Part shown: positions 650-54,360 of the stretch, one piece after another
Layout: each line of letters starts with the position of its first letter
How positions within the stretch are numbered: position 1 is the first letter of the stretch
Assembly: GCF_963921235.1 (NCBI RefSeq)
Contig: NC_086097.1
Span: 27,220,001-27,284,000, forward strand
Source: Mobula hypostoma
Taxonomy: Eukaryota
Direction: 5' to 3'
DNA length: 64,000 nucleotides
Notes under the pieces: generated by a model
Databases searched by the model: none
The model's input: only the letters and a program-made list of their open reading frames with translations
Told to the model about the DNA's origin: nothing
Made by a program: the position numbers and the translations under genes

Positions 650-680
650 GCTGACCAGCTGACTGAAGAACAGATTGCTG
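650..680 (+). CDS. calm1: Calmodulin coding exon 2 (ADQLTEEQIA + first base of E)
   Basis: ttttttccttgcAG acceptor at 648-649, 31-nt exon GCTGACCAGCTGACTGAAGAACAGATTGCTG, GTGAGT donor at 681. Matches the canonical vertebrate calmodulin exon structure; ATG-only exon 1 is not in the window. Confidence 0.97.
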
Positions 681-2269
681 GTGAGTAGTTTATATCTCTG
701 GAGTTTGGCTGGGCTTGTATGCAAGCAGAAATATCACACTTTTGTGGCATTCTGTTTGCTGTATGTGTGAAGTTAATGATTATAAGTGATATATCAAACA
801 CAATTGTGATTAGGGATCTAGGATTTGGACTCTTGATTGTTAACCTTCATTTTCCACCAAAGTACACATGGCCAGGCAAAAAAAACTGTCTAACCTTGTA
901 ACTAGTCTTTTTCAGTATGACTACATGGCTGTTTGCGATACATTGATACTGGATTTGCTTAGAACTAACATATAGTAGAGCTAGTCTGAGAACTAACAAA
1001 TCGAATTGCTTGTATGAATATCTAGATTTTTAGCATATTGAGCCTATGAAGTTTTAATGTCTTGAGGAATACTGGGATGGAATTAAAGCTTTTTAAACAA
1101 AATTTGGGCTAAGGTAGCCATATTAGAATTGAAATTGAGTGTGGACTGGTGTGGAATGTAAATGTGGTGCAATAGATGTTCTAGTGTTTAGAGACCTTGT
1201 ACCCATGCCCACTATAGCATGTGCAGGAAGTCTATTCTGGATTATGCTTCAAGTTTTGTTGTCTCTAATGGAGTTTACATATTGCCTGGGACTAGTAATT
1301 TGAAGCTACCTGTAAGCATCATTATTCGATTTGGTTTAGATGTGTATCACAAATTGCTCTGTAATTTTGGTTTTAATATATATGTAAGCGGTGTTTAAGC
1401 CATCCAAGTGCATATGTCAACTTTCTCCCCATGATGTGGCCATCTTGCTTCAGCCTGACATGCTGTTCCAGCATTTTGTGTGCTTTTGGATTTCCAGCAT
1501 GTAGAATTTCTAGTGTTTGTGATTTGCTTCAGTAAAGGGGTTAATCTAGGTCCATCGATGCACTCAGTTGATGTAGTGTATGATGCATGACAATGGGTTC
1601 TGACAGCACTGACCAGATAGTTCCAGAAAGTTCAGAGGCAGTCAAATAATTTGCTCAGGTTAAGGTCAGTCATACTTCTCATGAAAAGGTCCATGGGATG
1701 TCCTGTTGGGTTGTTGCAAAAAAAAAACAACCTTGCTGCATTTGTGTATTCATTATATTGGCTGCAAAGTAGTTGCCAAAGGCAAGTTTGCAGAATTATT
1801 GATTTGTTCTGTTGCAAAGATATTTTTCTTTGAATTAAATCAATGTAGCCTACATTATTTCTGTTTCAAATGTGGATCTTAAAAAAGAAAGTCCATGTAT
1901 CCATTTAAAGCATCCTTGCATTTGGACAAGTTTGAGTGATTAGTAATTTTAGTAAAAGGTGAGAAAGGGAAGTGATGTTTGAGTGGTTTGAATTTGCTGA
2001 TGCACTGATTTAGCTACTGACACTGAGTGCCATGGTTCTGGGTTTAGAGTTCTTGGATATTTGCACATTCTCCTATGCCCTCGTGGTTTTCCTGATTGCC
2101 CCACACACAATGCTGGAGGAACTCAGCAGATCAGACAGCACTGATGGGAGTGGAATTAAAGAGCTAATGTTTTGGACTGTGTCCCTCTGTTCTGAATTTC
2201 CTGTCATAGAAAAGTACAGCAAAGAATTAGGCCCTTTGGCATCCAGACAATGGCCCTCATACCCCTTCT

Positions 2270-2675
2270 GTTCACGTATCTATCCAAACTTAAATGTTGC
2301 AGTCAAAATCACTTGAGTTGGCAGCTCGTTCCACATTCTGAGACACTTTTCCCTTGTGTTCCCCTTGGACATTTCACCTTTAGTCCATGACTTCTAGTTG
2401 TTGTCTCACCCAACCTCAGTAGTGGGGGGGAGGGGAGGGGCAGGAGAAGCTGCTTGTATTTACTTTTGTCTATACATCTCATAATTTTGTATACCTCTAT
2501 CAAGTCTGCTTTTAATCTTCTATGTTTGAGGGAGTAAGTCTCTAACCTATTCAACATTTCCTTATAACTCAAGTCATCCAGTCCCAGCAACATCCTTGTA
2601 AATTTTCTCTCTACTTCAATCTTATTTACATCTTTCCTGTAGGTGGATGACCAAAACTGCACACAGTACTCCAGT
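2270..2675 (-). mobile_element. CR1-type LINE 3' fragment (decayed)
   Basis: Minus-strand translation LEYCVQFWS..YRKDVNKIE.ERKFTRML..LSYKEMLNRL..YSL..RRLKADLIEVYKIM is the typical CR1 ORF2 C-terminus. Confidence 0.85.
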
Positions 2676-2812
2676 GTCTGCATGTCTCTTGTGCTTATGG
2701 TTTCCTTAGTGCTCATATTTCTGCCATACATCAAACATCTGCTTTGATAACAACACACATAAAAGTGGCTGGTGAACGCAGCAGGCCAGGCAGCATCTCT
2801 AGGAAGAGGTAC

Positions 2813-2848
2813 AGTCGACGTTTCAGGCCGAGACCCTTCGTCAGGACT
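2813..2848 (-). ncRNA. Minimal type I hammerhead ribozyme motif (intact core)
   Basis: Minus strand reads AGTC-CTGACGA-AGG(GTCTCGG)CCT-GAAAC-GTC-GACT: helix I AGTC/GACT, CUGANGA box, helix II, GAAA box, palindromic ACGU in place of helix III, GUC cleavage triplet. Confidence 0.8.
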
Positions 2849-3096
2849 AACTGAAGGAAGAGTGAGTAAGGGATTTGAAAGTGGGAGGAGGAGATCCAAA
2901 ATGATAGAAGACAGGAGGGGGAGGGATGGAGCCAAGAGCTGGACAGGTGATAGGCAAAAGGGATAAGAGAGGATCATGGGTATCACCTGTCCAGCTCTTG
3001 GCTCCATCCCTCCCCCTCCTGTCTTCTCCTATCATTTTGGATCTCTCCCCCCCCCCCCCCCAACTTTCAAATCCCTTACTCACTCTTCCTTCAGTT

Positions 3097-3132
3097 AGTC
3101 CTGACGATGGGTCTCGGCCTGAAACGTCGACT
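3097..3132 (+). ncRNA. Minimal hammerhead ribozyme motif, sense to calmodulin pre-mRNA
   Basis: AGTC-CTGACGA-TGG(GTCTCGG)CCT-GAAAC-GTC-GACT. Core boxes intact; first helix II pair mismatched (T3108). Predicted cleavage after 3128. Confidence 0.7.
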
Positions 3133-4141
3133 GCACCTCTTCCTAGAGATGCTGCCTGGCCTGCTGCGTTCACCAGCAACTTTTATGTGTTGCTTGAATT
3201 TCCAGCATCTGCAGAATTCCTGTTATCTGCTTGATAAGCTGGCTACCTTTTGATCAATGCAGGTGTATTAGAATCTGGAGTTCATGAATATGTAAAAAAA
3301 TTTTTTAAAGAAGGTTCAAGGTAACATGGTAGTTGATGGTCTGTGAGGACTGTGGCTGAAAGGGTCTTGTTTACATACTGCTTTCTCTGATGGACAGTAT
3401 GTATAGCCTAGTCTAAACTAGATTGAATGGATCTAATTGCCTGAGGGGAAGCCAAACAGTTTCATTGTAACTGTATAATGACAATAAAGATCATTCAATT
3501 CAATATTAACTGTGCATGTTATTTGATCATCTTCACTTTTTGGTCTTGAACAATGGAATTAACTGCTAAATTAGTGAGTTATGCAGGCAAAATTGAGTTA
3601 CTTTGAGGCTCTGCTGCCTTGTAAAGTGTTAAGTGACCTGGTACTTCCATGAAAATGCAGTAAATGCCTAAAAGGAATGATGGTCCATGGTAGTAAATGA
3701 TAATAGTTGTGTTCTTGTGAATGAGAACTTGAAATACAAGATCTTTTGATGGTTTTAATGCCTGATAACTTGTGATAGTATTATTTAATTTACAGAATTA
3801 TGTAACATGACCATAATTGTGACCTGAATGGTAAACTCATAATTTCTCCTACTACTTGTGTTTAAGAATGAATCTAAAGGTTGTCAAGTACTCAGGTTCT
3901 GAGTTCGGTTGCAAGCCTGATGTTGGCCCATCAACCAGATTTAAGTCGTATCATTGCAACAGGGAGTATCATATTGAAGTGTAAATGCCAAGAGTGGTGG
4001 TCAGTTTTCTTCCCTGTTGGAAGAATAGATTAGTATCAATTTAAATATATCCTAAATTTTGGATGTTAAAGTAGTCATCAAGTGCAATTAGTTTTGAATT
4101 AAATATTTTGAAGTGTAGAAAACTGCGTGTAGTTCATTTGA

Positions 4142-4336
<195 letters not shown>

Positions 4337-5239: not shown

Positions 5240-5400
5240 TGCAAACACGAGGACATTTGCAGATGCTGGAATTTCAAGCAAGACATAAAAATTGGTGAAC
5301 GCAGCAGGCCAAGCAGCATCTATAGGAAGAGGTACAGTTGACATTTTGGGCTGAGACCCTTCGTCAGGACCCACTGAAAGATGAGATAGTAAGAGATTTG
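5240..5400 (-). mobile_element. Penelope-like 3' fragment with degenerate hammerhead
   Basis: Same repeat as 2751-3224. Minus strand CTGACGA-AGGGTCTCAGCCC-AAAATGTC, with the GAAA box mutated. Confidence 0.75.
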
Positions 5401-6859
5401 AGAATCCGGAAAAATATGCAAATGGCACAATATATTTAGGGTTGACAGTACAGGTCAGTGACTTTCTGAGGCTTGCATTTGGCAATAGACCACCTATTGG
5501 GGTTAATGACCTGAAAAGCTTTTCTGCACAGATGCTGCCCGGACATGTACTTTGTGTATAATTTTTCTTCTTTCTTCACAGCAATTTGGTTGGGTGGGGG
5601 TGTTGAGGGAAACTGGGGATTTTATGGTGAAAGTTAAAGCTTCAAAGGCAAAGGTGTGTTCAAACTTGCATTGGTCAATAACTTCATTTGATCTAGACTT
5701 GTACAAATTCTTCAGTGAGTGGGGGTTAAACTCAAATGACAATGACAATCAATGGGTGGTTCTGACTGGAGGGCAAGATTTAATTAGCAATTGAAAAGGT
5801 AATTGAGTTGAAATTTGTGCTTCATAGATGCTGCCTGACCTAACATTTTGTTGTTTTAGTTAGCTTAAGGTCTTTTAAAAGTACTTGTATTGAGTGGATG
5901 CACAGTTAAATTAGGTCATTTCATTTTTTTTGATTATTAGTTTCTAAACTTAGTGCATTCAACAGGAACAATTTAGTGTGGAGGAAGTGGTATCAATTTT
6001 AATTGGCAGTTGCATATAATAGAGAAGAAATGACACATTGGGCAGATATGCTCAGACATTGGATTTCTAACATGGACAATGAAAGTCATTGTTTATATTT
6101 AACAGCTGTCTACTTGGCTTGTAATTAGTAAAATCTTCCCAGAATACAATTAAAGACAGTGCCAATGCTGACTAGTATCTGCCCCTTATCAATTGTCCAA
6201 CAGTGTGGTGTTTTATTGAATGCAGGATCAATTGGAGAAGAATTCTTGGTATTCTAATATCAATAAGTCTTGAGTTTAGGTTGGTAATCTCTGCAGTATG
6301 TGTATGTTCTCATTTATGAATTTCATCCAAGTGCTATAGACATCTGGAAAAGAGCAGCCTTGGTCTGCTTTTTCCAGTTTAGCTTCTACAGGTAGGAGGG
6401 GCATGTTTCTATCAAGTGGCTTGTTTCTGCCTAAATAAAAAGCATTGGTAGATGTTTTTCCTAACTGAGTCAGTAGGTTTTGGCAAGTCCTGAGGGAAAC
6501 ATGATTAACCAGGCTAGGGTTGCTGTTGCTGTCCTTGTTTAATGTGCTGTTTTTAGGATTTTAAACTAGACCTAATGTGTTCAGTAGATAAGATTTTCGT
6601 GTGCAAAATTGGTGACTTGTTTCCCATATGTGCATTTCAGAGCTGTACTCACTGGCTGTAGAATGCTTTAGGTCATTGATAGTCAAGAAATTTACTGCAA
6701 AAGCTTCAGTTAAGCCTAACATTTGTCACAGTATTCACTTGTGACAGGTCATCGAGCCATAAGTATGATGGCTTTGCAATCTGTTTCTCCTAATTTCCCA
6801 GTAATGTTATTACTGCTGCATTGTCATTGATTCTATTCCCCACTACACTAACGGCAATT

Positions 6860-20864: not shown

Positions 20865-21620
20865 AGATGAGAAAATCTGCAGATGCAGGAAATCCAAGCA
20901 AAATGCTGGAGGAAATCTGCGGGCCAGGCAGCATCTATAGAAAAGTGTAAACAGTTGATGTTTTGGACCAGAGTCCTTAATCAGGATGGGTTGGGGGTGG
21001 GGGGGGGGGAAGGATGTACAAAGTTGTAGGTGATAGGTGAAATTGGGGGAAGGGGGGAAGTAAAGAGCTGGGAAGCTGATCAGAGAAAGGGCTGGAGGGG
21101 GAGTCTGATGGGAGAGGACAGAAGGCCTGGAAGAAAGGGAAGGGCAGGAGCACCAGAGGGAGGTGATGGACAGGTAAGGAGATGAGGTGAGGGGAAAACA
21201 GGAATGAAGGGGGGCCAGTTACTGGAAGATGAAGAGATTGATGTTTGTGCCATTAATTTGGAGGCTACCCGGGTGAAATGTTCCCCCAGCCTGAGCATAG
21301 CCTCACTGCAGCAGTTGCAGAGGCAATGGACTGACATGTTGGAATGGGAAGAATTAAAATGGGTGGTCTCCAGGAGATTCCACTTTTTCTGGTGAAGCAA
21401 ACTCCCAATCTGTCAGGTCTTGCCAATTTATACAGGAGACTACACTGAGAGCACTTAATATAGTAGATGATCTCAACAGACTCAGATGAAGTGTTGCCTC
21501 ATCTAGGACTGTTGGGGCCCTGAATGGTAGTGAGGGGGATAGTGTTGGGACAGGTACGGCACTTGTTCCGGCTGCAAGGATAAGTACCACGGAGTTCAGT
21601 GGGGAGTGAGCGATCCCTGT
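20865..21620 (-). mobile_element. Penelope-like retroelement relic: GIY-YIG endonuclease C-terminus plus 3' region with degenerate hammerhead
   Basis: Minus strand CSRNKCRTCP..TTIQGPQQS, then ESVEIIYYIKCSQCSLLY/IGKT (GIY-YIG motif, 21416-21483, one frameshift), then THFNSSHSNMSVH..EAMLRLGEH. Hammerhead relic at ~20952-20987. Confidence 0.85.
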
Positions 21621-22559
21621 ATAAAGTGGGAATGGAAAAATGTGCTCCTGTCTCCATTTTATTACACAACTACTCTTCCTATCCAAGTAAAGGTCAGTAT
21701 CTATTTGCCTTATCTGGGTGCATCTGCTACATCCAGATAAAGCAAACATGGATACAAGTCTGTTGGTCTGATGAGTCCGGACTCTGGTCCCAATTTCCTG
21801 CTTTTGGCCCATGTCTGTCTCAGCCCAGTAGCCCTGATGTAACTATGCAAGTGCTTCTTAAATGAAGCTATTGTATCTGCTTCAACTACTTTTGGCAGCT
21901 TGTTCCACCCTTTGCATGAAAATGTTGCCCCTCAATCACTTTTCAATCTTTCTCCCTAAATCTAAGCCACTTTGGTCTTTTTTGGCAACCTTTTAAACCA
22001 GAATTTAATTTTCTTTACTAAATTGCAATCACATGCCTTTCAAATGAGTAATTCAAGACTGTTCTTGGTTGCAATCATAAATAAAAGGGGCTTTCAATGA
22101 AAGCTCTATCATTTTTGTTTGGTCTACACTTGCCATCACAGAAGTAAATTGCTAGAAAGCATATTTGGACCAGGTGGCATTTGTAGAAATACAGCACCTG
22201 AAAGGGGGTTAGAGGCAGAAAATATCACTGTATATCCAAGTTATTTATAAACATTTGCAGAAATGGTGGGTGTATAGACTCATCAAGGAAGTGGAATAGC
22301 TAGAAGTAATCCATTGTTGACTTGCATGGATACATCAGGCTAGGTGTACCCCTGCATATAAAGTTCTAATTCAACTTCATAAAACTGGCAGGCAGGTAGT
22401 TGAAGTGTGAGCTCTTCCTAAGTATCAAAATGTGCTAGATCTTGCAATCAATATTGCTGTTTCTTGCCTATTGAACTAGAAAGGAAAAAAGTGCAGTGGT
22501 TCAGCACATTGAGATACGTAGGTGTGTGTGTGTGTTGCAAAATACTTGACATGAGATCT

Positions 22560-22925
22560 ACAAATGCTGGAGAAACTCAGTTGATCAGCCACATTCATGG
22601 AGAGGAATAAGCAATTGACATTTTGGACAGAGACTCTCCATTAGGACTTGAAAGGAAGGGAGCAGAAACCAGAATAATAAGATGGGGGAGAGGAAGAAAT
22701 GCAAGCTGTCAGGTAGTGGGTGAAGCCAGGTGAGGGGGAAGTTAGGTGGGTGGGAAATGGGTGTATGAAGTGCCTTCCCATTCACCTGCCAGCTTGTACT
22801 CCTTTCTCTTCCCCATCTTATTCTGGCTTCTCCCTTCCTTTACAGTTCTGATGAAGGATCTCAGCCTAAAATTGGACTCTTCATTGTTCTCGGTAGATGC
22901 TGCCTTGCCTGTTTTCCCACCACTG
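22560..22925. mobile_element. Older Penelope-like inverted pair with two degenerate hammerheads
   Basis: Left arm AGAAACCAGAATAATAAGATGGGG pairs with right arm CCCCATCTTATTCTGGCTTCT; CTGATGAAGGATCTCAGCCTAAAATTGGAC at ~22848. Confidence 0.7.
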
Positions 22926-23039: not shown

Positions 23040-25960
23040 AATGATTCCTTTAACCATGACCTTTTTCACATGTACGTTAAACATAGTGAGTACATTATTG
23101 GTATCAATAGCCGACAGCCTGAAGAGCTGGAGAACAAATTTGAGGACCTAAGGCCAAGATCACTGTATCAGAGAGAAATGGAAAATTGCTGTGCTCTGAG
23201 ATTCACAGAGACATGGCTCACTTTGGACACTAGATATGTCGATCAGATCTGAGGACTTCTTGATTCACAGGATGGACAGTGCTGTTTTGGAGAAGACAAA
23301 AGGTGGCCCAGAAGATCTGTTTCATGATAAACTCTTTGTAGTTCTTGGACACAGTGGTCTTTGTTGTACTCTTGTTCACCCAATCTGGAGCATCTAATGA
23401 TTAAGTGTTGACCATTATACTTACCGAGAGTTTTCCGTGATCCTGACTGCAGTTTACATTCTGCCACCAGGCTCTCGAAGTATTGAATGCTGCCTTCAGC
23501 AAACAAGAAAAAATTATACTGATGCCTTTCAAGTCATTGTCAGAGACTTTAATCAGACTTGTTTGAAGAAATCCCATGCATCAGAATCATCAATGTAGCA
23601 CCAAGGATCCGAACACACTTGACTACTGCTACATGACAATTAGATATGTCTACCATTCTATCCCTGGAGCACACTTTTTTTTTGGCTATCCTGCCTGCAT
23701 ACAGATAGAAGCTATAGAGCAAAGCTCCAAAGATAAGGACAACAAAGAGGTGGTTGGGGGAAGCTGAAGAACAACTTTGAGTCAGTAGACTGGCCTGTGT
23801 TTAAGGATCTGAATGAATACATTAAGGAGTTTATAAAAATAGTCATAAACAAGTGTGTGTGTCCCCACAAAACCATTTAGTCTTCCCTAACCAGATGCCC
23901 TGAATGAGCCTCAACCTGCTGAGGGCCAGTTAAGTGGCATTCATGTCTGGTGACCGAGAGGTCAAAGTATGATCTCTGAAAAAAACAATTTCATGTGCGA
24001 ACTGGCAATTCTGGACCAAGCATGAGTCGCTGAAGGATGCTCGACAGCTGTGACGGAGTGAAACCAAGCCGATGGGGACAACAAGGCTTTGTTCCCAGAG
24101 GAGCTCAATGACTTCTATGCTTATTTTGACCGTCAAAACATGAATGGGCCTTCATGAGCTACTACAGCCTCCGATGACCCTAAATTTCAGTCCTGTGGCT
24201 GATGTGAGAACATCCTTCAGGAGGGTGGACCTACAGAAAACATCCAGTCCAGCTGGAGTATCTGGCTGAGTACTAAAGACCTGTGCTGATCAACTGGCTT
24301 GAGTATTTACTGATATCATTACCCTCTCACCTTCAACTGTCTGAACTTCAAACAGGCTTAATTTATACCAGTGCCTAAGAAGAATATGGTAGCATGTCTC
24401 AATGGCTATCATCTGGTAGCGCTTCCACTGTAATGAAGTTAGTGATGAAACATATCAACTCCTGCCTGAGAAGTGACTTGGATCCACTCCTATTTGCCTA
24501 GTGTCACAATAGGTCCACACCAGATGCCATTTCATTGGTTCTTCTCTAACCCTGGAATATCTGGTCGGCGAAATGCATACATCAGGATGCTTTTCATCGA
24601 ATACAACTTGACTTTCATTACACAAACATGAGGAATTCTGCAGATGCTGGAAATTCAAGCAACACACATCAAAGTTGCTGGTGAACGCAGCAGGCCAGGC
24701 AGCATCTGGCTGGCCTGCTGCGTTCACCAGCAACTCTGATGTGTGTTACTTGACTTTCATTACTATTGTTCCCGCAAAACTGATAAATAAGCTTCAATAC
24801 CCTGGCTTCAGTACCTTCTTGTGCAATTGGGAAAAAAACAGTCAGATTGGCAACAACATCTCCACAATCTCCATTAGCACAGGTGTACCACAAAGCTGTG
24901 TACTTAAACCCCTGCTGTACTCACTTTACACTTATGACTGTGAGGCAAAGCTCAGCTCCAATGCCATATTTAAGTTTGCTGATGACTCCTCGCTGTCATT
25001 GGCTGAATCAAAGGTGCTGACAGATCAGCATATAGGAGGGAGATTGAAAATCTGGTTGAGTGGTATCACAACGACAACCTCTAACACAAAGTCAGCAATA
25101 CCAAGGAGCAGCTTATTGACCAGGAGGAGGAAACGGGAAGTCCATGAGCCAGTCCTCATTAGGAGATCAGAGGTGGAGAGGATCAGCAGCATTAAATTCC
25201 TCAGTGTCATAATTTCAGAGAATCGGTCCTGGGTCTAGCGCATAAATACCATTATAAAGAAAGCACAGCAGTGCCTCTGCTTCCTTGGAAGTTTGCAAAG
25301 ATTCAGCATGTCATTTAAAACTTTTGACAAACTTCTGTAGTTTTGTGGTGGAGAGTATACTGACTAGTTACATGACAGCTTGATATGGAAACACTAATAC
25401 CCTTGAATGAAAACTCCTGTGGGGGGCAGGGGGAAAGTAGTGGCTATAGTCCAGTCCATCATGGGTAGAGCCCTCCCACACCATTCAGCAGATCTACATG
25501 GAGCGCAGTTGCAGGAAAGCAGCATCCATTATCAAGGATCCCCACCATCTAGGCCATGCTCTCTTCTCACTGCTGCCATCAGAAGGTAAAGGAGCTTCAG
25601 GACGCACCACACCAGCTTCAGGAACAGTTATTATCTCTCAACCATTAGACTCTTGAACCAGAGGGAATAATTTCACTCAACTTCACTTGCCACATCACTG
25701 ATCTGTTCCCATAACCTATGGACTCACTTTCAAGGATTCTTCATCTCATGTTCTTGATATTTGTTGCTTATTGATTTTTTTTTGTATTTACAGTTTGTTG
25801 TCTTTTGCACATTGGTTGTTTGTTCATCTTGTTGGGTGTGATCTTTCACTGATTCTATTGTATTTCTTGGATTACTGAGTATGCCTGCAAGAAAATGAAT
25901 CTCAGGGTTGTATATGGAAGCATATAAATATTTTGATAATTTTATCTTGAAGTTTGAGCT
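23040..25960 (+). mobile_element. Decayed, near full-length Rex1/Babar-type LINE (APE endonuclease, RT, 3'UTR)
   Basis: ENKFEDLR..CCALRFTETWL (endonuclease), STGVPQSCVLKPLLYSLYTYDC..FKFADD (RT), C-terminal SSIKFLSVIISE, family 3'UTR ending near TTGAAGTTTGAGCTTTG. Many stops and frameshifts. Confidence 0.85.
24622..24747. mobile_element. Short Penelope-like fold-back insertion inside the Rex1 RT, with a 16-bp TSD
   Basis: TSD ACTTGACTTTCATTAC at 24606-24621 and 24748-24763; 38-bp inverted arms 24661-24698 / 24710-24747. Confidence 0.85.
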
Positions 25961-33750: not shown

Positions 33751-35566
33751 TTGCTCATCCCAAATTGAGAAGATAGTATTGGTGTTGGTTTATTACTGTC
33801 ACGTGTACCAAGATACAGCGAGAAATTAGTTTTTGCATACTGTGGCAGCCGGCCAGTACAGTCACTTTGGCGACATTAGAGTCATAATGCGGTTGGGAGG
33901 CAGTTCTGGTGACATTAGTGTCAAGGTGCCTTTGGGAGGAAGTTAATGTCCAATGATTACTGTGACGTGGTGATATATTACCAGGTCAAAGTGGTACATG
34001 ACAGGGAGGAGAACCAACATATCGGTGGGTTGCCCATGTACCTGAAGCCCTTGTCACAGCCTGGTACAAAGCAGAAACAGTTTTGCTCATCTACACCAAT
34101 CCCATTCGCCCAGTTAGGGCCACTTTCTTCCCTGCCTACATTTATTTTTGTTTTTTTTATTTAGAGATACAGCATGGTGCCAGGCCCCTCCAGCCCAACG
34201 AGCCGACCCCTCCCTTTGGTACCGGTTTATTATTGTCGCATGTGCCAAGGTACAGTGAAAACCTTGTCTTACATACTGTTCATACGGGTCAGGTCTCTGT
34301 ACTGTGCTTTCAGCTGGGATAAAGCAAACTAATAACAATGCAGAGTAAAGTGCAGAGATCAGCAAAAGAAGTGTGGTGCAGGTAAATGATAGCAGTGCAA
34401 GATCCTCATGGGGTAGATTGTGAAGCCAAGAGTTCATCTAATTGTACAAGAGCACTGTTCTGAAGTCTGATAACAGCGGGATAGAAGCTGTCCCTGAGCC
34501 TGGTGTTAGCAGGATTTTCTCTTCCTAGAGATGCTGCCTGGACTGCTGCGTTCACCAGCAACTTTTATGTGTGTTTTGTATCTTATGCTCGATGGAGGAG
34601 GGGAGAAGAGAGAAAGTCTGGGCCTTTGATTGGGCTTTACTGAGGCAGTGAGAAATGTAGACAGAGTCCATGGAGGGGAGGCTGGTTCCTGTGATGTGCT
34701 GAGCTGTGTTCACAACTCTGCAGTTTCTGTGGTCACGTGGGGAACAATTGTCATACCAAGCCGTTATGCATCCAGGCAGGATACTTTCAATGGTACAACT
34801 ATAAAAATTGGCAAGAGACAGTGGGGTCATGCCAAATTTTCTTAGCCTCAAGCCTGGTGGTACGTGCTTTCAAGCTTTTGTATTTTCTGGTTAATGGGAG
34901 AGGAGAGAAGAGAGAATGTCCCTCTCACTTCTTATCGCCTCTTATACATTGTAGTTTTATCTGATACCACCACTTGGCCTGATAGCGTGTTCCAGATGAC
35001 AACCACACCCCGTGTAATAAACTTAGCTAACAGATCTCCTTTAACATTAATTATTCTCACCCTAAAACTGCCCTCCTGCCTTTGATAACTGTTCTACCCT
35101 GCAGGAGAAGTTTTTAGAAGTCTGCCCTATCTATGCCTCTCATAATGAGGGTGGCACCGTAGCAGAGCAGTTACGGTGCCAGCGGGCTGGGTTCGATTCC
35201 CGCCAGTGTCTGTAAGGAGTTCTTCTTGTGATCTGGGGGGGCGGGGGGGGGGGGTTCCCTCTCACATTCCAAAGACGTAAGTTAATTAGTAGGTTAATTG
35301 TTCAGATGGGTGTGATTAGGTGCTACGGGCTTGTTGAGCCGCAAGGAACTGTAACGGTGATGTATCTCTAAATTAAAAAAATAAATAAAATAATGTTTTA
35401 TGTGGTTATCAGGTCACGCCTCAGCCTCCTTGTTTCCAGGGAAAACAAGCCCAGACTATCCTGTCTCTCATCGTAGATAAAGTCCTTTCTGCTCGTATGT
35501 TTCTTTAAGCACAACGTCATGCTCTTGCCTGATCAATCTGTGTAACAGCTTTCCCAATTTAGCTTT

Positions 35567-35713
35567 CCCTTCGTCCTGACCCTTCGATGGGTCTCGGCCT
35601 GAAACGTCGACTGTACCTCTTCCTACAGATGCTGCCTGGCCTGCTGCGTTCACCAGCAACTTTGATGTGTGTTGCGTGAATTTCCAGCATCTGCAGAATT
35701 CCTCGTGTTTGCG
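35567..35713 (+). mobile_element. Young Penelope-like 3' fragment with a rearranged hammerhead 5' half
   Basis: GGGTCTCGGCCTGAAACGTCGACTGTACC...CCAGCATCTGCAGAATTCCTCGTGTTTGC, nearly identical to 3109-3224. Confidence 0.8.
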
Positions 35714-49293: not shown

Positions 49294-51998
49294 CATAGAA
49301 CCATAGAACCATAGAAACTACAGCACAGAAACAGGCCCTTTGGCCCTTCTTGGCTGTGCCGAACCATTTTCTGCCTAGTCCCACTGACCTGCACACAGAC
49401 CATATCCCTCCATACGCCTCCCATCCATGTATCTGTCCAATTTATTCTTAAATGTTAAAAAAAACCCGCATTTACCACCTCGTCTGGCAGCTCATTCCAT
49501 ACTCCCACCACTCTCTGTGTAAAGAAGCCCCCCCTAATGTTCCCTTTAAACTTTTCCCCCCTCACCCTTAACCCATGTCCTCTAGTTTTTTTCTCCCCTT
49601 GCCTCAGTGGAAAAAGCCTGCTTGCATTCACTCTATCTATACCCTTCATAATTTTATATACCTCTATCAAATCTCCAGTCATTCTTCTACGCTCCAGGGA
49701 ATAAAGTCCCAACCTATTCAACCTTTCTCTGTAACTGAGTTTCTCAAGTCCCAGCAACATCCTTGTAAACCTTCTCTGCACTCTTTCAACCTTATTTATA
49801 TTCTTCCTGTAATTTGGTGACCAAAACTGAACACAATACTCCAGATTCGGCCTCACCAATGCCTTATACAACCTCATCATAACATTCCAGCTCTTATACT
49901 CAATACTACGATTAATAAAGGCCAATGTACCAAAAGCTCTCTTTATGACCCTATCTACCTGTGACGACACTTTTAGGGAATTTTGTATCTGTATTCCCAG
50001 ATTCCTCTGTTCCACTGCACTCCTCAGTGCCTTACCATTAACCCTGTATGTTCTACGTTGGTTTGTCCTTCCAACATGCAATACCTCACACTTGTCAATA
50101 TTAAACTCCATCTGCCATTTTTCAGCCCATTTTTCCAGCTGGTCCAAGTCCCTCTGCAGGCTCTGAAAACCTTCCTCACTGTCTACTACACCTCCAATCT
50201 TTGTATCATCAGCAAACTTGCTGATCCAATTTACCACATTATCATCCAGTTCATTGATATAGATGACAAATAACAATGGACCCAGCCCTGATCCCTGTGG
50301 CACACCACTAGTCACAGGCCTCCACACAGAGAAGCAATTTTCTACCACCACTCTCTGGCTTCTTCCATCGAGCCAATGTCCAATCCAATTTACCACCTCT
50401 CCATGTATACCTAGCGACTGAATTTTCCTAACTAAACTCCCATGCGGGACCTTGTCAAAGGCCTTACTGAAGTCCATGTAGACAATATCCACTGCCTTCC
50501 CTTCATCCACTTTCCTGGTAACCTCCTGGAAAAACTCCAACAGATTGGTCAAACATGACCTACCATGCACAAAGCCATGTTGACTCTCCCTAATAAGCCC
50601 CTGTCTATCCAAATGCTTGTAGATTCTGTCTCTTAGTACTCCCTCCAATAACTTACCTACTACTGACGTTAAACGCACCGGCCTACAATTTCCCGGATTA
50701 CTTTTCGATCCTTTTTTAAACAACGGAACAACATGAGCCACTCTCCAATCCTCCGGCACTTCACCCGTAGACAGCGACATTTTAAATATTTCTGCCAGGG
50801 CCCCCGCAATTTCAACACTAGTCTCCTTCAAGCCCGAGGGAACACCCTGTCAGGTCCCGGGGATTTATCCACTTTAATTTTCCTCAAGACAGCAAGCACC
50901 TCTTCCTTTTCAATCTGTACAGTTGCCATGGTCTCACTACTTGATTCCCTCAATTCCATAGATTTCATGTCAGCTTCCTTAGTAAATACAGACGCAAAAA
51001 ACCTATTTAAGATCTCCCCCATTTCCTTTGGTTCTGCACAAAGCCGACCACTCTGATCTTCAAGAGGACCAATTTTATCCCTTACAATCCTTTTGCTCTT
51101 AATATACTTGTAAAAGCTCTTTGGATTATCCTTCACTTTGACTGCCAAGGCAACTTCATGTCTTCTTTTTGCCCTCCTGATTTCTTTCTTAAGTATTTTC
51201 TTGCACTTCTTATACTCCTCAAGCACCTGATTTACCCCCTGTTTCCTATACATGTCATACAACTCCCTCTTCTTCTTTATCAGAGTTGCAATATCCCTTG
51301 AGAACCAAGGTTCCTTATTCCTATTCAATTTGCCTTTAATCCTGACAGGAACATACAAACTCTGCACTCTCAAAATTTCCCCTTTGAAGGCTTCCCACCT
51401 ACCAATCACATCTTTGCCAGAGAACAACCTGTCCCAATCCACGCTTTTTAGATCCTTTCTCATTTCTTCAAATTTGGCCTTCTTCCAGTTCAGAACCTCA
51501 ACCCTAGGACCAGATCTATCCTTGTCCATGATCAAATCGAAACTAATGGCGTTATGATCACTGGAACCAAAGTGCTCCCCTACACAGACTTCCGTCACTT
51601 GCCCTAATTCGTTTCCTAACAGGAGATCCAATATTGCATCCCCTCTAGTTGGTCCCTCTATATACTGATTTAGAAAACTTTCCTGAACACATTTTACAAA
51701 CTCTAAACCATCTAGACCCCTAACAGTATGGGAGTCCCAACCAATGTATGGAAAATTAAAATCCCCTACCACCACAACTTTATGTTTCTTGCAGTTGTCT
51801 GCTACCCCTCTGCAGATTTGCTCTTCCAAGTCTCGTTGACTATTGGGTGGTCTGTAATACAATCCCACTAATGTGGCCATACCTTTCCTGTTTCTCAGCT
51901 CCACCCATAAGGACTCAGTAGATAAGCCCTCTAATCTGTCCTGCCTGAGCACTGCTGTAACATTTTCCCTAACAAGCAATGCTACTCCCCCACCTTTC
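49294..51998 (-). mobile_element. Young 5'-truncated CR1 (HER1-like) LINE with near-intact ORF2 (APE endonuclease + reverse transcriptase)
   Basis: ORFs 50828-52000 (GGGVALLV, GDFNFP, PTRGDAILDL, SSDH) and 49455-50831 (YMDFSKAFDKVPH, PQGSGLGPLLF, SKFADDTK) joined by one frameshift; (TTCTATGG)n 3' tail; candidate TSD ATTAC at 49289-93 and 51999-52003. Confidence 0.95.
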
Positions 51999-52003
51999 AT
52001 TAC

Positions 52004-54360
52004 AATAAGATAAGGAACACATTAAAATGACAATAAATGTAAGCGCACAAGGTAGCTTATTTACATTGGTTGATTGTATGTCCATAAAGTGACGCCAGAT
52101 GCCGGAGTCTCAGTACATCAGGTGACTGACAGGAAATGACAAAGTGATGGTGGAGGGGGGTGTGGAGGATGGGTTAGTGGATGGAGGTGTCGATCAGCCT
52201 CACTGCTTGGGGAAGGTAACTGGTTTTGAGTCTGGTGGTCCTGGTGTGGATGCTAGGTAGCCTCCTCCGCTATGGGTGTGGACAAACAACCCATGAATAG
52301 AGCGGGTGGGATCCTTCATGATAATGCTTGCTTTTTCCCGACCCCTCTCTGTACACACGTCCTTGACGGTGGGTAGGCTTTGCTGGTGATGCACTGAGCG
52401 GCTTTGACTAGCTTTGTGGGGCCTTCCTGCCCACTGCAGTGCGGTTTCCGTACGACGCAGTGATGCAGCACGTAGGGCTGTTCTCCACTGCGCATCTGTA
52501 GAATTTCATGAGTATTGATGTTCATAGTCCAGCTCTCTTTAGCCTCCTCAGAAAGCAGAGGTGCTGGTGAGCTTTCTCGACTGCCTAGGATGCGTTCCGG
52601 GACCATGAGAGATTGTGTGTGATGTGCACTCCCAGGAGTTTGAAAATCCTCGCAGTTTCCACTGCTGTGCCACCGACGTAAAGAGGGGTGTGAGCGGTGT
52701 GAGTTCTCCCGAAGTCGATAACCACCTCCTTTGTCTTGTTGATATTGAGGGAGAGGTTATTTGCCTGGCACCAGACCTCGAGCTCTTCCACCTCCTCTCT
52801 ACAGGCCGTCTCATCATTGTTGGTGAGACAACGACGTCATCAGCAAACTGAATTATGTGATTACTCAGGAGTCTGGCAATGCTGTCGCGTGTCAGCAGCG
52901 TGTACGGCAATGGGGTCAGCACAGCCCTGGGGGTGGGGGGAAGCCACATTAATGATGATGGGGAGGGAGGAGCAGTTGTTCCTCCTGACTCCTGTTGGTT
53001 AGGAAGTTCAATGCCCAGTTTCACAGTGGTGTACTTAGACTGAGGAGTAGGAGTTTGTTCACCACGTTCTGTGGGACAATGGCGTTGAATGCGTTCTGAC
53101 ATAAGTGTCCTTGTTTTCTGGGTGTGTTCAGGCTATGGCATCTGTTCTACAGCGGTTCTGTCGGTAAGCATGTTTGTGAGTGTCCAGTGTGACAGGAATG
53201 GAATTTTCATTGTGTGCCATTACCAGCCAATCGAAGCACTTCAGAATGATTGGCGTCCGTGCCAATGTGTGGTAGTCGCTTAGCTCTGAAGGTGCAGAGT
53301 TCCTTCGTACATTGATGATGGCCGCTACCTTGAAGCGTGTGGGGACAGCAGCCTGGATGAGTGAAGTTCTGAAGGTGTCTGAGAAGACATCAGTGAGCTG
53401 GTGAGCACAGTCCCTGAGTACTCAGCCTGTGATGTACCCAACATCAATGATCCTCACCACCCAGGCCATGCTCTCTTCTCGCTGCTGCCATCAGGAAGGT
53501 GCTACAGGAATCTCGGGACCCACATCACCGGGTTCAGGAACAGTTATTACCCCTCATCCACCAGGCTCTTGAACCAGAGGGGATAACTTCACTTGGCTTC
53601 ACTCGCCCATTCCTGAACTGGACTCACTTTCAAGGACTCTTCATCTCATGTTCTTGATATTTATTGTCTGTTGATTTTTTACTGTCTTTTTGTTCTTTTT
53701 GTATTTGCACAGTTTGTAGTTTTATTGTGCACATTGGTTGTTTGTCTATCCTGTTGGGCGTGGTCTTTTATTGACTCTACCGTGTTTCTTGTAATTACTG
53801 TGAATGCCCAGAAGAAAATGAATCTTGGGATTGTGTTTGGTGACTTATATGTACATTGGTAATAAATGTATTTTGAACTTTGAACTTTGGGATGTTGTCT
53901 GGCTGGGCATCTGTATGGGGGCTGACACTGCAGAGTCCTTCTCACAGTTACTGGCAGTGGTTGCTCACCCCGGGGGGGTGGGGATAAACGTTGTCTGGAG
54001 CATCAGGGAGGGAGGTGTCACTGTATAGCCAAAGCTGTTTCCCCTGCATATTCAGTAATGCCCTTGATGTCCGGTCACATACACCGGGGATCGTTATTAG
54101 ACGGTGTTCCTGAATTTTTTTCTTTATAGGCACTCTTTGCTCTTTTGGTGCTTAAGATGAGGTTTCTCGTGATGTCTCCAGACTTGAAGACAACATCCCG
54201 GGCTTTTGGCAGGGCCCACGCCTTTGCGTTCAGCCAGAGCTTCTGATTGGACTGTGAGATACCAATGTCACCTACGCCTTTACAGATGTAGCTCTTGATC
54301 AATGAGGCATGTTCCTCGAGGTTTGTGTTTTCTCTTTTTGTGGTGGCCTCCTGGAGCACC
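52004..54360 (-). mobile_element. Decayed Rex1/Babar LINE (RT and C-terminus), with a plus-strand Rex1 3' piece nested at ~53440-53890
   Basis: Minus ORFs LTPLPYTLLTRD..IIQFADD, WCQANNLSLNINKTKEVVIDF..FKLLGVHITHNLSW and NQKLWLNAK. Confidence 0.82.

What the first reader, a model, noticed from the sequence alone, without database searches (positions are those of the whole stretch)
2813..3132. Minimal hammerhead ribozymes in calmodulin intron 2
Seen: AGTC-CTGACGA-[AGG..CCT]-GAAAC-GTC-GACT on the minus strand (2813-2848) and a one-mismatch copy on the plus strand (3097-3132). Both have the hammerhead boxes CUGANGA and GAAA, a 4-bp helix I, a short helix II and a GUC cleavage triplet, but helix III is reduced to the palindrome ACGU. 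Established: minimal hammerheads with a palindromic helix III occur in the pLTRs of Penelope-like elements and are thought to cleave as dimers. Inference: the plus copy is transcribed within calmodulin pre-mRNA, so an essential gene carries a potential self-cleavage site after 3128.
Basis: partly seen in the sequence, partly recalled or inferred. Interest (0 to 1): 0.75.

Follow-up and report, generated by a model that had tools for sequence, protein, structure and literature searches.

The report
Self-masked Penelope ribozymes in calmodulin intron
The two ribozyme-like motifs are the mirror-image halves of one short jumping-gene insertion in a calmodulin intron, a known kind of Penelope-like scrap, and the copy in the gene's own direction is predicted to be zipped up by its mirror partner, so it likely does not cut the calmodulin message.

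Summary
The motifs are real and at the stated places: 2 hits in 64 kb against 0.03 expected, inside calmodulin intron 2 (681-4160). They are not independent copies. They lie in the two arms of one 474-bp head-to-head insertion (2751-2980 minus, 2981-3224 plus) with a 13/14-bp target-site duplication and a 32-nt tail on one arm only, the published signature of Penelope-like element (PLE) insertions. The repeat family is very abundant (84,667 contig pieces laid from one run). An older relative in the window sits behind a decayed GIY-YIG endonuclease, and a related organism likely lacks this insertion. The PLE identification is therefore supported. The self-cleavage inference is not. The antisense arm is transcribed first, and folding predicts the sense motif 97% paired to it, with the hammerhead fold 64-72 kcal/mol less favourable. 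No second intact sense copy exists for a dimer, and published minimal PLE hammerheads are inactive as monomers. No RNA-end data were available, so cleavage itself is untested. Verdict: an ordinary member of a known kind; interest low.

The parts
650..680 (+). calmodulin exon 2 (31 nt); exon 1 lies upstream of the window (numbering by recalled vertebrate calmodulin gene layout)
681..4160 (+). calmodulin intron 2 (GT...AG), host of the insertion
2737..2750 (+). left copy of target-site duplication (14 nt)
   Evidence: 13 of 14 match to 3225-3237; none of up to 3000 random window pairs scored as high
2751..2980 (-). inverted, tail-less 5'-truncated pLTR arm (230 nt). 2953-2980 is its unpaired extra 5' part and forms the hairpin loop
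   Evidence: loose ends before 2982 read as the reverse complement of 2953-2980
2813..2848 (-). minimal type I hammerhead motif, antisense to calmodulin, core intact
2981..3224 (+). direct 5'-truncated pLTR arm (244 nt) with an expanded C-run
3097..3132 (+). minimal type I hammerhead motif, sense to calmodulin. Helix I 3097-3100/3129-3132, unpaired 3108, helix II 3109-3112/3117-3120, predicted cut after 3128. Predicted to be sequestered by the antisense arm
3193..3224 (+). 32-nt 'tail' present on this arm only
   Evidence: family 3' ends pile at 3190 and 3221/3224
3225..3237 (+). right copy of target-site duplication (13 nt)
   Evidence: a contig of organism D begins to match exactly here
4161..4304 (+). 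calmodulin exon 3 (144 nt)
20866..21657 (-). older, decayed relative: broken C-terminal GIY-YIG endonuclease of a PLE ORF (21657-21278) followed by a pLTR related to the finding (62-69% identity). This is the link between the repeat family and PLEs
24606..24763 (.). second head-to-head insertion of the same young family (arms about 24622-24707 minus and 24706-24747 plus), exact 16-bp TSD, 39-nt tail on one arm, truncated below the ribozyme

Best explanation
The two motifs are the arms of one 474-bp head-to-head repeat insertion in calmodulin intron 2, likely a 5'-truncated Penelope-like retroelement end, and the sense copy is predicted to be locked in a duplex with its antisense partner, so it is likely an inert passenger removed with the intron. 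Shown: coordinates, inverted arms, TSD, one-sided tail, high family abundance, and a related older copy behind a broken GIY-YIG endonuclease. Inferred from published PLE biology: an element-encoded GIY-YIG nuclease nicked AT-rich DNA, and the RT began at two internal sites about 30-40 nt apart, giving one arm with and one without the tail; both cDNAs were truncated within the pLTR, and repair left the TSD. Predicted by folding: RNA polymerase makes 2751-2980 first, so the sense arm zips up from the 28-nt loop as it emerges and neither helix I, helix II nor the dimeric helix III can form. The hairpin lies about 2 kb from the donor and 0.9 kb from the acceptor, so splicing is likely unaffected.
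For: Arms match at 195 of 199 aligned bases. The TSD is 13 of 14 here and 16 of 16 at the second insertion. Tails are 32 and 39 nt, against the 30-40 bp tail, inverted 5'-truncated copy and TSD described for PLEs (PMC8557442, PMC3846280 passages). Opposite-strand min-HHR pairs 100-700 bp apart are already reported (PMC4209133). The decayed ORF at 21278-21657 matches stingray proteins P0003/P0004 at E 3e-14 and 3e-15 and two 816-827-aa RT+GIY-YIG ORFs at E 3e-7 and 1e-6. In one search, 84,667 pieces were laid from run X1 with depth concentrated on 2953-3232, and a 983-nt contig of organism D matches from 3225 onward with 107 unmatched letters before it. Mean pairing of the sense motif to the antisense arm was 0.95-0.97 in the full context and all 6 nascent-length folds; every hammerhead pair that could be scored had probability 0.000, and forcing the fold cost 64-72 kcal/mol. 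Motif:antisense duplex is -76.4 against -12.1 kcal/mol for the active dimer. Of 11 aligned window copies, 2 keep an intact core, and helix covariation is no better than shuffles (497 of 500 as high for pairing).
Against: The young subfamily itself was not seen attached to a PLE ORF; the link runs through an older relative only 62-69% identical over 127-201 nt. The degraded peptide alone gave 0 Pfam hits, and the RT and GIY-YIG Pfam scores of the two full-length hits P0012 and P0018 fall below the curated cut-offs. The empty site in organism D is inferred: the 107 letters were not printed. Part of the loose-end pile at 3190 may come from a local 2-nt indel. Folding is an equilibrium model; it ignores RNA-binding proteins, A-to-I editing and helicases. 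That the only two intact cores in the window are this pair fits youth, but would also fit selection.
Confidence: 0.88

Rival explanations
1. The sense hammerhead cleaves calmodulin pre-mRNA after 3128, as a dimer in trans with another family transcript or helped by PLE protein, lowering calmodulin output.
For: The core is intact and the isolated 51-nt motif forms helices I and II with probability 0.84-0.93. Family RNA may be plentiful: 5,170 pieces were laid from X9, a run only guessed to be RNA. An engineered fast hammerhead in a fish intron lowers expression up to 20-fold (PMC11856399 passages). The Anolis PLE ribozyme cleaves when PLE protein is added.
Against: Sequestration by the upstream antisense arm. 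Even without that arm, hammerhead pairs form at only 3-11% in the local context. No second sense motif exists in the window. The monomer was inactive and dimers weak in vitro, and no RNA-seq ends were found at the Anolis cut site.
Confidence: 0.04
2. A domesticated, conserved intronic regulator of calmodulin, like the amniote RECK/CTCL/DTNB intronic hammerheads.
For: Domesticated intronic hammerheads exist (PMC6155905 passages). The host gene is highly conserved.
Against: The motif is minimal, not canonical. It is one copy of a huge dispersed family with a fresh TSD. It is likely absent at the orthologous site of organism D, whose flanking intron differs at only 31 of about 830 aligned letters. 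No covariation signal was found.
Confidence: 0.02
3. The ribozyme is irrelevant, but the roughly 200-bp intronic duplex matters as double-stranded RNA (A-to-I editing, small-RNA source, or altered splicing), much like inverted SINE pairs. That comparison is recalled, not tested.
For: The predicted hairpin is -406 kcal/mol, z = -34, in a transcribed intron.
Against: No read-level RNA data were available. The hairpin is far from both splice sites. Such pairs are common here: at least two more lie in this window. Editing would be a by-product rather than a function.
Confidence: 0.05
4. The inverted repeat is an assembly artefact or a local fold-back duplication unrelated to transposition.
For: No contig spanning both arms was examined; only the right arm and right flank were laid.
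Against: The arms differ by 4 substitutions and several indels, end at different family-typical 3' ends, and are framed by a TSD. The same architecture recurs at 24.6 kb and 22.6-22.9 kb.
Confidence: 0.01

Closest known systems
Minimal type I hammerheads (min-HHR) in pLTRs of metazoan Penelope-like elements (Cervera and De la Pena 2014, PMC4209133)
   Same: CUGANGA + one unpaired base + G-started helix II + GAAA + palindromic CG without loop III + UC cut + short helix I. Dispersed copies, and opposite-strand pairs 100-700 bp apart.
   Different: The 10.1-11.1 pair is G-U rather than the usual G-C (G-U also occurs in several rows of their Fig. S3, e.g. cichlid and Xenopus 1). Helix II is only 4 bp. 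No cartilaginous fish appears among the Fig. S3 or Table S1 rows I read (supplement parts 1-2 of 3).
Inverted 5'-truncated pLTR insertions with a one-sided 30-40 bp tail and TSD (PMC8557442, PMC3846280; mechanism in Anolis Poseidon PAc, PMC11167929)
   Same: Head-to-head arms, tail on one arm (32 nt), TSD, hammerhead about 90-120 nt upstream of the 3' ends.
   Different: No ORF is carried: both arms are truncated inside the pLTR. Clade (Poseidon versus Neptune) was not tested by a tree.
Non-LTR retrozymes (PMC7229834; bioRxiv 10.64898/2026.07.22.740005)
   Same: Type I hammerhead in a short non-coding PLE-related repeat in a vertebrate genome, often intronic (42-44% of copies in Xenopus).
   Different: Retrozymes are head-to-tail tandems that can dimerise and make circular RNAs; this is an inverted pair that cannot.
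Conserved intronic hammerheads of amniotes (RECK, CTCL, DTNB; PMC6155905 passages)
   Same: Type I hammerhead in the sense direction of an intron of a conserved gene.
   Different: Those are conserved across classes and few in copy number. This one is minimal, multi-copy, young, likely absent in a close relative, and predicted to be masked.

Membership tests
PLE minimal hammerhead (min-HHR) | Catalytic boxes CUGANGA and GAAA with NUH cleavage triplet | tested here: met
   both copies
PLE minimal hammerhead (min-HHR) | Unpaired nucleotide between A9 and 10.1 | tested here: met
   A in the minus copy, U (3108) in the plus copy; consensus
PLE minimal hammerhead (min-HHR) | G10.1-C11.1 closing pair of helix II | tested here: inconclusive
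   G-U in both copies; window copies GU 6, GC 5 of 11; G-U occurs in published members
PLE minimal hammerhead (min-HHR) | Palindromic 15.2/16.2, no helix III | tested here: met
   ACGU in both copies
PLE minimal hammerhead (min-HHR) | Covariation of helices across copies | tested here: inconclusive
   11 window copies only; 82% of cells paired versus 18-50% when slid, but no better than shuffles (497 of 500)
PLE minimal hammerhead (min-HHR) | Self-cleavage as dimer or with PLE protein | not testable with these tools
   no raw RNA reads were listed; needs an in vitro assay
Penelope-like element insertion | Inverted 5'-truncated copy at the 5' end (head-to-head) | tested here: met
Penelope-like element insertion | 30-40 bp tail on one end only | tested here: met
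   32 nt here, 39 nt at 24.6 kb; two piles of family 3' ends
Penelope-like element insertion | Target-site duplication | tested here: met
   13 of 14 bp
Penelope-like element insertion | pLTR lies directly behind an RT + GIY-YIG ORF | tested here: inconclusive
   met for an older relative at 20866-21657; not seen for this young subfamily; no genome was available
Penelope/Poseidon clade | RT phylogeny; no Zn-finger-like linker of Neptune/Nematis | not tested
   no tree built; no RT of this family in the window
Non-LTR retrozyme | Head-to-tail tandem with at least two hammerheads on one strand | tested here: not met
   one intact motif per strand in 64 kb
Domesticated intronic hammerhead | Orthologous conservation across lineages | tested here: not met
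   the organism D contig enters at the TSD without element sequence (empty site inferred, one relative only)

The most novel reading that the evidence does not exclude
The head-to-head geometry of Penelope insertions works as a built-in antisense safety catch: solo sense-strand hammerheads in introns cut host pre-mRNA often enough (in trans or with PLE protein) to be purged, whereas those inserted with an upstream inverted arm are silenced and tolerated, even in calmodulin. In this gene 3 of 4 family pieces seen in introns 2-3 are antisense (2101-2198, 2751-2980, 5250-5401) and the only sense one is the masked arm, which fits but is far too few to test. A genome with this many copies would allow a population-genetic test of whether minimal PLE hammerheads cleave in vivo.
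Probability: 0.08. Interest if true: 0.5.

Novelty: new member of a known kind. Interest (0 to 1): 0.13.

Why it matters
As it stands it matters little. It is a typical truncated Penelope-like insertion, and both the motif and the inverted pairing are in print. The useful lesson is for annotation: an intact hammerhead core in the sense direction of an essential gene need not be a cleavage site, because the PLE insertion geometry supplies its own antisense strand. It would matter more if orientation statistics over the family's many intronic copies showed selection against unmasked sense copies, since whether metazoan minimal PLE hammerheads cleave in vivo is still open in the papers read.

Tried and rejected
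No whole genome is held for this window, so there are no genome-wide copy counts or orientation statistics. Rfam found no hammerhead family hit; the weak miRNA matches only reflect the long hairpin and were rejected. Exact-pattern scans for related loci gave 0 hits in viral contigs and 0 in metagenome contigs twice. Sequencing runs: no RNA holder on record was listed and all 24 runs are contigs, so RNA ends at 3128/3129 could not be examined; the empty table of ends says nothing. Only 4 of 24 runs were laid, on the right arm and right flank only (2953-4140). The word-indexed protein search with the decayed endonuclease found 0 of 244 candidates and Pfam found 0 families; the exhaustive search found 28 proteins. 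Its top hit P0002 and P0006 are repetitive proteins without a GIY-YIG match and were set aside; Pfam was run on 8 of the 28. Translating the arm and searching longer proteins gave 1 hit among 179 candidates, a Mobula hypostoma STARD3NL isoform carrying a translated piece of the repeat, not a PLE ORF. No TSD was found for the old inverted pair at 22.6-22.9 kb (score reached by 41% of random pairs). In organism B a contig starts at 3226, which could mean a polymorphic site but has other explanations; it was not used. Literature searches showed no paper on this ray family or this locus; the library lacks most subscription journals and Repbase/Dfam were not available, so absence from print is not shown. 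The preprint's supplements were not seen and may list a chondrichthyan family. Earlier-finding look-ups by sequence and by words returned nothing.

Full report
OBSERVATION. The two motifs are in the sequence as described: 2813-2848 on the minus strand and 3097-3132 on the plus strand, one mismatch apart. A descriptor requiring both boxes, helix I, helix II and an NUH triplet finds just these 2 loci in 64 kb; 300 shuffles gave a mean of 0.027. The host gene is calmodulin. Exons of 31 nt (650-680) and 144 nt (4161-4304) have canonical borders, later exons lie near 8.4, 11.7 and 15.6 kb, and exon 3 is identical to calmodulin in the alignment shown. The intron number 2 rests on the recalled vertebrate layout in which exon 1 ends at the ATG. 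One detail needs correcting: the published consensus has an unpaired base after CUGANGA and a helix II starting with G (PMC4209133 supplement). Read that way, helix II is GGGU/GCCU with a CUCG loop, and the A/T difference at 3108 falls on the unpaired base.

WHAT IT IS. The motifs are not two separate ribozymes but the middle of two arms of one inverted repeat. The left arm is 2751-2980 on the minus strand and the right arm 2981-3224 on the plus strand, 5' ends meeting in the centre, with 195 of 199 aligned bases identical and 16 gap positions, mostly in a C-run. The apparent 28-nt spacer is simply more element sequence on the left arm: contigs of other copies continue before 2982 with its reverse complement. 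The right arm runs 32 nt further at its 3' end. The unit is framed by a 14/13-bp duplication at 2737-2750 and 3225-3237; none of up to 3000 random window pairs scored as high. A second insertion at 24.6 kb repeats the design with an exact 16-bp TSD and a 39-nt one-sided tail, and an old pair lies at 22.6-22.9 kb. An inverted 5'-truncated copy, a 30-40 bp tail on one end and a TSD are the described structure of PLE insertions (passages of PMC8557442 and PMC3846280). The tail reflects two internal RT start sites in the Anolis Poseidon element (PMC11167929, parts 1-2 of 4). Min-HHR pairs on opposite strands 100-700 bp apart were already noted (PMC4209133, parts 1-2 of 4).

LINK TO A PLE PROTEIN. 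A decayed relative at 20866-21260 (62-69% identical to the arms over 127-201 nt, E 7e-11 and 3e-9) is directly preceded by a broken ORF. Read through with X, it found 28 proteins at E up to 0.001. Of 8 scanned with Pfam, 5 have a GIY-YIG match (2 above the curated cut-off) and 2 of those, 816 and 827 aa long, also have a sub-threshold RT match. The best non-repetitive hits are two Hypanus sabinus predicted proteins, which map back to 21278-21657 at E 3e-14 and 3e-15; one aligns with the 816-aa ORF at 41% over 389 aa. A Mobula hypostoma isoform carries a translated piece of the young repeat. The window is therefore likely from a ray. The young subfamily was not itself seen next to an ORF, so its PLE status rests on architecture plus this older relative.

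ABUNDANCE AND AGE. Laying contigs of 4 of 24 listed runs on 2953-4140 put 84,667, 66,407, 5,170 and 10,002 pieces down, with summed depth around 10^6-10^7 on the arm in the two best DNA runs against tens on most of the unique flank. The tool warns that this is no copy number. The best-supported loose ends (24 rows shown, 1094 hidden) pile at 3190 and at 3221/3224 (776 against 321 and 205 in X1), the two family 3' ends; part of the first pile may reflect a local 2-nt indel. In organism D a 983-nt contig at depth 6.5 matches from exactly 3225 to 4122 (31 other letters, one 70-nt skip) and has 107 unmatched letters before 3225. That is what an empty site would give: the contig passes the single target copy and ends about 45 nt inside the LINE-like fragment that stops near 2674. 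The letters were not printed, so this is inference. Within the window only 2 of 11 aligned copies keep an intact core; several have lost it at CpG positions, and helix pairing shows no covariation beyond shuffles. This is the picture of neutral decay, with this pair intact because it is recent.

DOES IT CUT CALMODULIN PRE-mRNA? Likely not. The plus-strand RNA of 2730-3240 folds into one hairpin of -406 kcal/mol (z -34). Because the antisense arm is 5' of the sense arm, it exists before the motif is made. In the full context and in 6 of 6 nascent-length folds the motif is on average 95-97% paired to that arm, every hammerhead pair that could be scored has probability 0.000, and forcing the hammerhead costs 64-72 kcal/mol. 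A minus-strand transcript would mask the other copy equally (0.97). The active dimer is worth -12.1 kcal/mol against -76.4 for the motif paired with its antisense, and there is no second intact sense motif anywhere in the window. Without the left arm the helices still form at only 3-11% in context, although the isolated 51-mer forms them at 84-93%. Published monomeric min-HHR showed no cleavage and dimers little; the Anolis ribozyme cut only with protein, was not needed for insertion, and left no RNA-seq ends at its site. Against complacency: an engineered fast hammerhead in a zebrafish intron does knock a gene down, so intronic cleavage can matter in principle, though the same paper calls most natural ribozymes too slow (PMC11856399 passages). 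These are models and analogies; no RNA reads were available to test cleavage.

COMPARISON AND VERDICT. It works like, and on all but the untestable or inconclusive features is, a PLE min-HHR in a 5'-truncated inverted pLTR insertion. It is not a retrozyme (no head-to-tail tandem; PMC7229834 passages; bioRxiv 10.64898/2026.07.22.740005 part 1 of 5 and passages) and not a domesticated intronic hammerhead of the RECK type (PMC6155905 passages). PMC2377424 (passages) confirms a 34-bp terminal repeat and inverted flanks in Drosophila Penelope. Earlier AI notes on this genome describe the same family; they are leads only, and I reached the reading before seeing them. What is particular here is only that the inverted geometry is predicted to silence the one sense-strand copy. 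The boldest reading left open is that this masking is selected, as a safety catch for intronic insertions; 3 of 4 family pieces in introns 2-3 are antisense and the fourth is masked, which is too few to test. Novelty: new member of a known kind. Interest 0.13.

Noticed in passing
window 24606-24763: Tiny head-to-head insertion of the same young family with an exact 16-bp TSD and a 39-nt tail on the left arm; both arms start downstream of the hammerhead.
   Followed up: yes
window 20866-21657 (-): Decayed PLE 3' end: broken GIY-YIG endonuclease, pyrimidine-rich pLTR and a ruined hammerhead.
   Followed up: yes
window 22561-22915: Old head-to-head pair of the same superfamily (75% between arms), both cores broken, no TSD recognisable.
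   Followed up: partly
window 35565-35703 (+): Young copy whose 5' end falls inside the hammerhead core; it can be read as a 5-nt insertion in CUGANGA or as a tiny fold-back junction. It shares the rare T at the position of 3108.
   Followed up: partly
window 5250-5401 (-) and 2101-2198 (-): Two more antisense family copies in calmodulin introns 3 and 2; in the first, three CpG-type changes hit the GAAA box and the cleavage region.
   Followed up: partly
window 3134: The two arms differ at a site that is also variable across the family (T in 54% of depth in run X1, 98% in X14), which could mean two templates or later conversion rather than a private mutation.
   Followed up: no
window 3434-3503: About 70 bp with high repeat depth that the organism D contig skips: a second small lineage-specific insertion in intron 2.
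   Followed up: no
window 2205-2674 (-) and 49455-52021 (-): Fragment of a LINE-like element just left of the TSD, 78% like the RT end of a long, nearly open endonuclease+RT element at 49.4-52.0 kb (CR1-type by recall, not tested).
   Followed up: no
proteins P0030, P0003, P0004: Public ray protein models contain this repeat or PLE ORFs under unrelated names (STARD3NL isoform, mucin-2 isoform, uncharacterized), i.e. exonisation or mis-annotation.
   Followed up: partly
run X5, window 3226-3492: In organism B a full-depth contig begins one base into the right TSD copy, which may mark a site where filled and empty alleles converge.
   Followed up: no
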